Below are positions 38,475-38,707 of a stretch of DNA of 64,000 nucleotides, piece by piece. The position numbers and the translations under genes were made by a program. The DNA is from Escherichia coli (GTDB lineage Bacteria; Pseudomonadota; Gammaproteobacteria; Enterobacterales; Enterobacteriaceae). The stretch's first letter is position 1, and the number at the start of each line of letters is the position of its first letter. The stretch lies in the NCBI RefSeq assembly GCF_003334385.1, contig NZ_QOWN01000008.1; one strand, 5' to 3'. The notes beneath the pieces are model-generated. The model did no database searches, was not told the origin of the DNA, and saw nothing but the letters and a program-made list of their open reading frames with translations.

Positions 38475-38477
38475 TAT

Positions 38478-38690
38478 TGAGATGCCGGATGCGGCGTAAA
38501 CGCCTTATCCGGCCTACGGCTCGGTTTGTAGGCCTGATAAGACGCGCCAGCGTCGCATCAGGCTCCGGGTGCCGGATGCAGCGTGAACGCCTTATCCGGC
38601 CTACGGCTCGGATTTGTAGGCCTGATAAGACGCGCCAGCGTCGCATCAGGCACAGGATGCGGCGTAAAATGCCTTATCCGGCATTAAACT
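38478..38690. repeat. REP/BIME cluster in the nrdA-nrdB intercistronic region
   Basis: Tandem near-identical ~95-bp units GCCGGATGC(G/A)GCGT(A/G)AACGCCTTATCCGGCCTACGGCTCGG(A)TTTGTAGGCCTGATAAGACGCGCCAGCGTCGCATCAGGC. Confidence 0.85.
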
Positions 38691-38707
38691 CCCAACAGGA
38701 CACACTC

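What the first reader, a model, noticed from the sequence alone, without database searches (positions are those of the whole stretch)
38475..38707. Large BIME cluster inside the nrdA-nrdB operon spacer
About 215 bp of tandem near-identical ~95-bp REP units sit between two co-transcribed essential genes. The spacious ORF-track entry for nrdB (start 38477) is an artefact of translating through these palindromes. Intercistronic REP clusters can stabilise upstream mRNA and modulate relative subunit expression. Copy number differs between strains and could alter the nrdA:nrdB ratio.
Basis: partly seen in the sequence, partly recalled or inferred. Interest (0 to 1): 0.15.

Follow-up and report, generated by a model that had tools for sequence, protein, structure and literature searches.

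The report
Known REP cluster between nrdA and nrdB
The 233-base gap between the two ribonucleotide reductase genes of E. coli K-12 holds five copies of the common REP palindrome, a catalogued element (REP164a-e, a BIME-2) whose copy number varies between strains, so the finding is real but ordinary.

Summary
The nrdA-nrdB spacer (38475-38707) contains five REP palindromes in alternating orientation, Y-Z2-Y-Z2-Y' (38484-38684, about 202 bp). The repeat period is 87-88 nt, not about 95. The 453-aa ORF starting at 38477 is an in-frame artefact; nrdB starts at ATG 38708.

The element is already catalogued. EcoCyc names it REP164a-e. A published BIME-2 table lists it with in vivo gyrase cleavage sites. 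A 2025 paper cites the nrdAB REP transcript as previously reported for ribosome stalling near stop codons; the first REP lies 9 nt after the nrdA stop.

Copy number does vary. Among 5,426 complete E. coli genomes, about 44% carry 5 REPs, about 19% carry 3, about 5% carry 4 divergent REPs, and one sampled strain carries 7. Exactly 31% (1,684) carry no REP but a different dispersed palindrome resembling BoxC.

Across 79 Enterobacterales species the spacer runs from 12 to 322 nt. It usually holds some stable hairpin, often terminator-like.

The most likely function, inferred by analogy with REP325, is partial attenuation of transcription into nrdB plus protection of nrdA mRNA. This was not tested for this locus. 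Novelty: already known. Interest: low.

The parts
38472..38474 (+). nrdA stop codon (TGA). The first REP stem begins 9 nt downstream.
38475..38707 (+). nrdA-nrdB intercistronic spacer, 233 nt
38484..38517 (-). REP164a, Y type. On the + strand it reads palindrome then CTAC, so the canonical 5'-GTAG form lies on the - strand. Sense-RNA hairpin -20.5 kcal/mol.
   Evidence: By eye, the reverse complement matches 31 of 32 bases of the y REP oligonucleotide quoted in PMC3479197.
38518..38527 (.). Short foot-to-foot linker GGCTCGGTTT between Y and Z2
38528..38563 (+). REP164b, Z2 type (5'-GTAG then palindrome on the + strand). Hairpin -20.5 kcal/mol.
38564..38570 (.). Head-to-head linker TCCGGGT. O157-type alleles have ACA here instead.
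38571..38604 (-). REP164c, Y type, 94% identical to REP164a. Hairpin -16.0 kcal/mol.
38616..38651 (+). REP164d, Z2 type, identical to REP164b
38655..38684 (-). REP164e, a degenerate Y' with no CTAC foot and a loop one base longer. Hairpin -11.8 kcal/mol. Present in every REP-bearing allele examined.
38697..38710 (+). nrdB ribosome-binding site (AGGA 38697-38700) and true start codon (ATG 38708-38710)
   Evidence: ACAGGAC is kept in all six E. coli allele sequences extracted; ACAGGA in the E. albertii and second E. coli representative spacers.
38477..38707 (+). Artefactual in-frame 5' extension (77 codons, TTG start) of the nrdB ORF through the REPs
38531..38601 (-). Rfam naRNA4 (RF02564) match above the gathering score. 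It is a generic Y-linker-Z2 unit, not a locus-specific gene.
38674..38709 (-). yoaM (b4779), an annotated 11-aa antisense smORF. Its last four codons, including the stop, lie inside REP164e.

Best explanation
Shown: this is REP164a-e, a BIME-2 cluster of five REP palindromes (Y, Z2, Y, Z2, Y') in the transcribed spacer of the nrdA-nrdB-yfaE operon of a K-12-like E. coli. It belongs to the dispersed REP/BIME family. It expands and contracts in steps of one 87-88-nt Y+Z2 pair, giving 3-, 5- and 7-REP alleles. It is absent from about a third of E. coli, where a different palindromic repeat takes its place.

Documented elsewhere: DNA gyrase cleaves this BIME-2 in vivo.

Inferred mechanism: in the nrdAB mRNA the five GC-rich hairpins act as a local regulator with two effects.
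- They block 3'-to-5' exonucleases, and so protect the nrdA part of the message.
- They partly attenuate transcription into nrdB-yfaE, probably with help from Rho.
Both effects shift the balance toward nrdA.

The first hairpin starts 9 nt after the nrdA stop codon, so it should also hinder terminating ribosomes and damp NrdA synthesis. Copy number and allele type would therefore tune the NrdA:NrdB ratio modestly. The element is not essential.
For: Identity:
- Repeat anatomy.
- The EcoCyc name REP164a-e is attached to nrdA in a table of PMC10100675.
- No IHF consensus is present.
- Rfam naRNA4, a 77-nt Y-l-Z2 unit, matches at 76.4 bits.

Stability: each hairpin folds at -12 to -20.5 kcal/mol. 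The whole spacer has z = -6.9 against shuffles.

Mechanism by analogy:
- REP325, six Y/Z2 units in the yjdM-yjdN operon spacer, is a partly Rho-dependent terminator and a stabiliser of the upstream mRNA. Its deletion changes the yjdM/yjdN ratio from 35 to 1.
- REPs protect 3' ends, and BIMEs attenuate transcription.
- REPs within 15 nt of a stop codon stall ribosomes. [quoted passage not shown] 2015.
- The 9-nt offset is the same in all eight REP-bearing Escherichia spacer sequences examined.

No competing signal: the spacer has no sigma-70-like promoter on the + strand and no intrinsic terminator.

Comparative context: 58 of 70 spacers of 42 nt or more in other Enterobacterales fold with z < -2. 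Terminator-like hairpins occur in 22 of 70, against 2.1 +/- 1.4 in shuffles.
Against: - No expression, 3'-end or half-life data for nrdAB were obtained. Term-seq supplements held nothing for nrdA or nrdB.
- The primary paper said to treat the nrdAB REP (Liang et al. 2015) could not be read.
- nrdB is essential in air, so any termination must be weak.
- 31% of E. coli lack the REPs entirely, and some genera have a 12-nt spacer. The element is therefore dispensable and its effect may be negligible.
- Harris et al. stress that REP effects depend strongly on context.
- The structured-spacer argument is partly circular, because long spacers are long precisely because palindromic elements were inserted into them.
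Confidence: 0.7

Rival explanations
1. A neutral passenger. The BIME is a selfish or hitchhiking palindromic repeat that settled in a tolerant, promoter-free spacer. It changes copy number by slippage or unequal recombination and has no meaningful effect on nrdAB expression.
For: - Presence, absence and copy number are all polymorphic within E. coli: 0, 3, 4, 5 or 7 REPs.
- 1,684 of 5,426 genomes carry no REP here.
- The spacer is 12-17 nt in Photorhabdus, Xenorhabdus and Providencia.
- Different genera carry unrelated elements at this site.
- REP effects are reported to depend on context and to be often absent.
Against: - The closest analogue, REP325, has a tenfold effect on its downstream gene.
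- Nearly every allele and most genera keep some strong hairpin at this position.
- The first REP sits at a fixed 9 nt from the stop codon, within the reported stalling distance.
Confidence: 0.25
2. Its main role is in DNA. The BIME-2 is a strong, transcription-independent gyrase site that manages supercoiling around the nrdAB operon, and the RNA-level effects are incidental.
For: This locus is cleaved by gyrase in vivo: 2 cuts in Espeli and Boccard 1997, and 2-3 cleavage sites in Topo-Seq that persist with rifampicin. Gyrase prefers Y REPs, and this cluster has three.
Against: Cleavage shows binding, not benefit. A third of strains have no BIME here. No phenotype is known. This reading does not exclude the RNA-level effects.
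Confidence: 0.15
3. It encodes a naRNA4-like small RNA that binds HU and condenses the nucleoid.
For: Rfam RF02564 matches above the gathering score at 38531-38601 on the minus strand (76.4 bits against 59.5). An antisense transcript (yoaM) starts inside nrdB and would read through this stretch.
Against: - The model is simply one Y-l-Z2 unit, and it also hits another BIME-2 in the window twice.
- Sense-strand matches fall below threshold (41.4 and 34.3 bits).
- A 2026 study finds that REP325/naRNA4 does not compact the nucleoid.
Confidence: 0.03
4. The spacer is coding: a 453-aa NrdB with an N-terminal extension starting at TTG 38477.
For: An open frame runs from 38477 to 39838.
Against: - The annotated nrdB starts at ATG 38708, preceded by AGGA.
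- The 'extension' changes length by non-multiples of 3 between strains (233, 146, 226, 241, 189 and 88 nt).
- In a third of strains it is replaced by unrelated sequence.
Confidence: 0.01

Closest known systems
REP325 (source of naRNA1-6) in the yjdM-yjdN operon spacer of E. coli
   Same: Both are BIME-2-type arrays of alternating Y and Z2 REPs lying between two co-directional genes of one operon. The unit matches the Rfam naRNA4 model. For REP325, a partly Rho-dependent attenuation of the downstream gene and stabilisation of the upstream mRNA have been shown.
   Different: - REP325 has six Y/Z2 units with constant U spacers, whereas this cluster has two and a half units.
- Relative to transcription, the best naRNA4 match here lies on the antisense strand.
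- The flanking genes here are essential in air, so strong termination is impossible.
- No experiment on this locus was available.
BIME-2 gyrase sites (Espeli and Boccard 1997; Sutormin et al. 2019)
   Same: This very locus is in their lists, with 2 cuts and 2-3 cleavage sites.
   Different: There is no structural difference. The open question is functional: what the cleavage does for the cell.
REP elements within 15 nt of a stop codon (Liang, Rudd and Deutscher 2015; nth is recalled from memory as their model gene)
   Same: The first REP stem starts 9 nt after the nrdA stop codon. [quoted passage not shown]
   Different: The primary paper could not be read here, so what exactly was measured for nrdAB is unknown to me. 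The BoxC-like allele has its strong hairpin about 30 nt from the stop and would not be expected to stall ribosomes.
Intercistronic REPs of malE-malF and hisJ-hisQ (Higgins 1982; Newbury 1987)
   Same: These are REP hairpins inside an operon that protect the upstream segment from 3' exonucleases and skew relative expression (cited).
   Different: Those examples have one or two REPs. The parallel rests on established literature and was not tested here.

Membership tests
REP / BIME-2 | Imperfect palindromes of about 30-36 nt carrying a GTAG/CTAC tetranucleotide at the foot | tested here: met
   REPs a-d carry CTAC or GTAG. REP e is degenerate and lacks the foot.
REP / BIME-2 | Y-type and Z2-type REPs alternating in inverted orientation, in a variable number of copies | tested here: met
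   The order is Y, Z2 (inverted), Y, Z2 (inverted), Y'. Y matches the published y REP oligonucleotide at 31 of 32 bases, compared by eye. Alleles with 3, 5 and 7 REPs exist.
REP / BIME-2 | No long linker with an IHF site, which is the mark of BIME-1 | tested here: met
   WATCAANNNNTTR is absent from both strands of the spacer. The linkers are only 3-11 nt.
REP / BIME-2 | Dispersed, high-copy and extragenic | tested here: met
Three other REP sites lie in this window. The cluster lies between two coding sequences.
REP / BIME-2 | Cleaved by DNA gyrase in vivo | not testable with these tools
   Documented for this locus in the literature: 2 cuts, and 2, 3, 0 and 3 cleavage sites under four conditions.
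naRNA4 (Rfam RF02564) | Score at or above the family's gathering threshold | tested here: met
   76.4 bits against 59.5, on the minus strand only. The sense-strand matches score 41.4 and 34.3 bits. The model also hits another BIME-2 in the window, so membership means only 'a Y-l-Z2 unit'.
naRNA4 (Rfam RF02564) | A discrete HU-bound RNA with a role in the nucleoid | not testable with these tools
   No expression data were available. The role itself is disputed.
Stop-codon-proximal REP that regulates translation | REP stem within 15 nt of the upstream stop codon | tested here: met
   The gap is 9 nt in all eight REP-bearing Escherichia spacer sequences examined.
Stop-codon-proximal REP that regulates translation | Ribosome stalling, mRNA cleavage and tmRNA tagging of the upstream protein | not testable with these tools
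   Only a secondary citation was available. The primary paper is not held.
Intrinsic (Rho-independent) terminator | GC-rich hairpin followed directly by a run of T | tested here: not met
   The spacer has no such site on the + strand. Many other genera do have one at this position.
BoxC (for the alternative 88-nt allele) | A GC-rich imperfect palindrome of about 50-56 bp, present in about 20-30 copies per E. coli genome | tested here: inconclusive
   The 50-nt core has a median of 14 and up to 26 places per genome. Published figures for BoxC are 50-56 bp and 22-32 copies. No BoxC consensus was available for comparison, so the name is provisional.

The most novel reading that the evidence does not exclude
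The nrdA-nrdB junction of Enterobacterales may be under selection to carry some stable hairpin. The ancestral form would be an intrinsic-terminator-like attenuator or 3' stabiliser. In Escherichia and its neighbours, mobile palindromes (BIME-2, other REP pairs, BoxC-like elements) would have repeatedly taken over that role. On this reading the E. coli alleles (BoxC-like, 3, 5 or 7 REPs) are natural expression variants that set different NrdA:NrdB ratios and so influence dNTP supply.
Probability: 0.2. Interest if true: 0.4.

Novelty: already known. Interest (0 to 1): 0.12.

Why it matters
It matters little as a discovery. The element is named in EcoCyc, listed among the gyrase-cleaved BIME-2s, and cited as an example of a REP close to a stop codon.

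The practical value is twofold. For annotation, the 453-aa nrdB ORF should be ignored. For experiments, the natural allele series at an essential operon (0, 3, 5 or 7 REPs, or a BoxC-like hairpin) is a ready-made set for testing how much REP arrays really change the ratio of two subunits that must assemble into one enzyme.

Tried and rejected
- A fixed-spacing IUPAC pattern for REPs found nothing because I set the spacing wrongly. I replaced it with blastn-short using the locus's own Y and Z2 sequences.
- Three attempts to read Liang et al. 2015 and its follow-up failed because the papers are not held. The nrdAB stalling claim therefore rests on a secondary citation.
- 3'-end mapping data gave nothing. 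The Adams et al. supplements contain no nrdA, nrdB or yoaM entry as stored, and the Dar and Sorek supplements are not held.
- A CRISPRi preprint and an RNase III target paper contained nothing about this spacer.
- An internal nrdB promoter was considered. No sigma-70-like site lies on the + strand of the spacer, so I rejected it, though only on a consensus scan.
- An intrinsic terminator in the K-12 spacer was considered and rejected, since there is none.
- BIME-1 or an IHF site was rejected.
- naRNA4 as a specific gene was rejected as a generic BIME-2 match.
- A coding extension of NrdB was rejected on the allele lengths.
- A search for the BoxC-like motif in the window found no copy.

Full report
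WHAT IS THERE

The window is K-12-like E. coli. It shows 2 mismatches in 5,501 bases against MG1655 2344000-2349500, and a window position equals the MG1655 position minus 2,308,676.
- nrdA is 36189-38474.
- nrdB is 38708-39838 (376 aa).
- yfaE is 39838-40092.

The spacer, 38475-38707, is 233 nt. Reading it directly, and using repeat finder, Tandem Repeats Finder and blastn-short with the locus's own units, it contains five REP palindromes:
- Y at 38484-38517, ending in CTAC
- Z2 at 38528-38563, starting with GTAG
- Y at 38571-38604
- Z2 at 38616-38651
- a degenerate Y' at 38655-38684, without the CTAC foot

The linkers are 10, 7, 11 and 3 nt (read; sequences). The tandem period is 87-88 nt, with 1.9 copies at 96% identity, not about 95.

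As RNA the individual hairpins fold at -11.8 to -20.5 kcal/mol. The whole spacer folds at -118.4 kcal/mol, with z = -6.9 against dinucleotide shuffles.

The 453-aa ORF from TTG 38477 is simply the nrdB frame left open through the palindromes. The spacer changes length by non-multiples of three between strains, so it cannot be coding.

WHAT IT IS CALLED

The Y unit differs at one base of 32 from the y REP oligonucleotide crystallised with TnpA-REP (compared by eye). There is no IHF consensus, which excludes BIME-1.

The element is already in the literature:
- A table in PMC10100675 attaches 'REP164a-e' to nrdA.
- The supplement of Sutormin et al. [quoted passage not shown] It records 2, 3, 0 and 3 gyrase cleavage sites under ciprofloxacin, rifampicin plus ciprofloxacin, microcin B17 and oxolinic acid.

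Rfam's naRNA4 model matches the minus strand at 38531-38601 above its gathering score (76.4 against 59.5 bits). That model is one 77-nt Y-l-Z2 unit of REP325, and it hits another BIME-2 in this window twice (8162-8238 and 8276-8352). The match therefore says 'BIME-2 unit' and nothing more.

VARIATION WITHIN E. COLI

All 5,426 complete genomes have the locus. Two systematic samples down the ranking, of 39 and 59 chromosomes, agree on these proportions of spacer alleles:

| Spacer length | REP content | Share |
|---|---|---|
| 233 nt (+/-1) | 5 REPs, K-12 type | about 37-38% |
| 241 nt | K-12 type plus an 8-bp duplication | about 2% |
| 226 nt | 5 REPs, O157:H7 type | about 5% |
| 145-146 nt (one sampled variant at 151 nt) | 3 REPs | about 18-19% |
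| 189 nt | 4 REPs of a divergent type | about 5% |
| 322 nt | 7 REPs | one strain |
| 88 nt | no REP | about 31% |

The 241-nt allele is seen, for example, in C41(DE3). The 189-nt allele is seen, for example, in E2348/69, and one of its two REP units is identical to one found in Citrobacter youngae.

A direct count with the 88-nt allele as query gives 1,684 of 5,426 genomes, or 31.0%.

The allele anatomy shows several independent rearrangements:
- K-12: [Y][Z2]ctccgggtgcc[Y][Z2]caca[Y']
- O157: the same, but with caca at both head-to-head junctions
- E. albertii: the two junction types in the opposite order
- 3-REP allele: [Y][Z2]caca[Y']
- STEC306: three full [Y][Z2] units followed by Y'

Changes therefore occur in steps of one Y+Z2 pair.

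The REP-less allele is not empty. Its core, CCGTCCCCTCTCCCCTTGCGGGAGAGGGTTAGGGTGAGGGG, is itself a dispersed repeat with a median of 14 and up to 26 places per genome. Its size and copy number fit the BoxC family, described as 50-56 bp and 22-32 copies. I could not compare it with a BoxC consensus.

OTHER SPECIES

A scan of species-representative genomes with NrdB returned 80 loci. The spacer could be delimited in 79 of them. It runs from 12 to 322 nt, with a median of 79.
- Photorhabdus, Xenorhabdus and Providencia have 12-17 nt with no structure.
- E. albertii has the Y/Z2 array.
- Citrobacter, Klebsiella, Pluralibacter and Pseudescherichia have a pair of their own REPs.
- Pseudocitrobacter, Phytobacter, Cedecea and one Enterobacter have CCCTCACCCC...GGGGTGAGGG palindromes.
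- Kosakonia, Buttiauxella, Rahnella, Serratia, Pectobacterium, several Erwinia and others have a single GC-rich hairpin followed by a run of T.

Of the 70 spacers of 42 nt or more, 43 fold with z < -3 and 58 with z < -2. A simple hairpin-plus-T-run scan finds a site in 22 of 70, against 2.1 +/- 1.4 (maximum 6) in shuffles. That scan misses stems extended by A-T pairs, so it undercounts.

Two caveats apply. The species are not independent of one another. Long spacers are long because a palindromic element sits in them, so 'structured' partly follows from 'long'.

HOW IT MOST LIKELY WORKS

Shown here or documented elsewhere: the anatomy, membership of BIME-2, gyrase cleavage at this locus, the 9-nt distance from the nrdA stop codon to the first stem, and the polymorphism.

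Inferred:
- In the nrdAB-yfaE transcript the hairpins form a barrier to 3' exonucleases and a partial, probably Rho-assisted, attenuator. This is what Harris et al. 2026 showed for REP325, where deletion lowered yjdM, raised yjdN about tenfold and moved the yjdM/yjdN ratio from 35 to 1. Older work on REPs and BIMEs describes the same effects.
- The first hairpin lies within the 15-nt stalling range.

The spacer has no promoter-like site on the sense strand and no intrinsic terminator, so nrdB depends on read-through. Because nrdB is essential in air, attenuation must be partial.

The element as such is dispensable, since a third of strains lack it. In the BoxC-like allele the strong hairpin starts about 30 nt after the stop codon. 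The alleles should therefore differ in any stalling effect.

I put the identity at near certainty. I put a measurable effect on the nrdA:nrdB balance at a little better than even.

RIVALS
- A purely neutral passenger remains a serious alternative.
- A DNA-level role as a gyrase site is documented as binding and cleavage only.
- The nucleoid-RNA reading is disfavoured.
- The coding reading is excluded.

VERDICT

The feature is already known and of low interest. The allele series and the recurrent occupation of this junction by unrelated hairpins are modest additions.

Noticed in passing
window 38674-38709 (minus strand): yoaM (b4779) is an 11-aa antisense smORF annotated in MG1655. It overlaps the nrdB start codon, and its last four codons, including the stop, lie inside REP164e. 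The peptide is not conserved within E. coli: 11 aa in the K-12 and 3-REP alleles, 5 aa in the 189-nt allele, and an open frame of at least 30 aa in the BoxC-like allele. Weaver et al. report translation of a yoaM-lacZ fusion and a transcription start 174 nt upstream, at about window 38883 on the minus strand.
   Followed up: partly
L006:426-513 (E. coli RM11911) and 1,684 of 5,426 E. coli genomes: About 31% of E. coli carry an 88-nt nrdA-nrdB spacer with no REP. It holds a different dispersed GC-rich palindrome that resembles BoxC and occurs at a median of 14 places per genome.
   Followed up: yes
L087:2905-3226 (E. coli STEC306): A 322-nt spacer carries seven REPs (three full Y+Z2 units plus Y'). 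It is the largest E. coli allele seen in the samples.
   Followed up: yes
L005:426-614 (also E2348/69, hit H99): A 189-nt allele has four REPs of a divergent type. One of its two REP units, GTAGGCCGGATAAGCGAAGCGCATCCGGC, is identical to a REP in the Citrobacter youngae spacer (L011). Its origin, ancestral or introgressed, was not examined.
   Followed up: no
L017, L021, L026, L030, L031, L033, L036, L069-L073, L084 and others, just upstream of position 1501: Many Enterobacterales genera have a classical terminator-like hairpin with a run of T between nrdA and nrdB. Examples are Kosakonia (GGGGCGGGGAAACCCGCCCTTTTTTT) and Rahnella (AAAACCCCCGTCAGGGGGTTTTT). Photorhabdus and Xenorhabdus have only 12 nt.
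   Followed up: partly
L054:1179-1500 (Pectobacterium betavasculorum): This 322-nt spacer contains a long structured insert that is absent from P. zantedeschiae (110 nt). The insert was not identified.
   Followed up: no
window 8159-8355: Another BIME-2 with four REPs gives two Rfam naRNA4 matches above the gathering score, both on the minus strand.
   Followed up: partly
window 31637-31718 and 40123-40140: A Z2/Y REP pair lies at 31637-31718. A half Z2 remnant lies just downstream of yfaE, before the convergent inaA.
   Followed up: no
window 4408-4501 (+): Rfam matches MicF RNA at 114.4 bits, well above its gathering score.
   Followed up: no
window 38742-38760 (minus strand): A terminator-like hairpin with a run of T lies antisense inside the 5' end of nrdB, between the reported yoaM transcription start and the yoaM start codon. 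It may be chance, since 0.4-0.6 such sites are expected.
   Followed up: no
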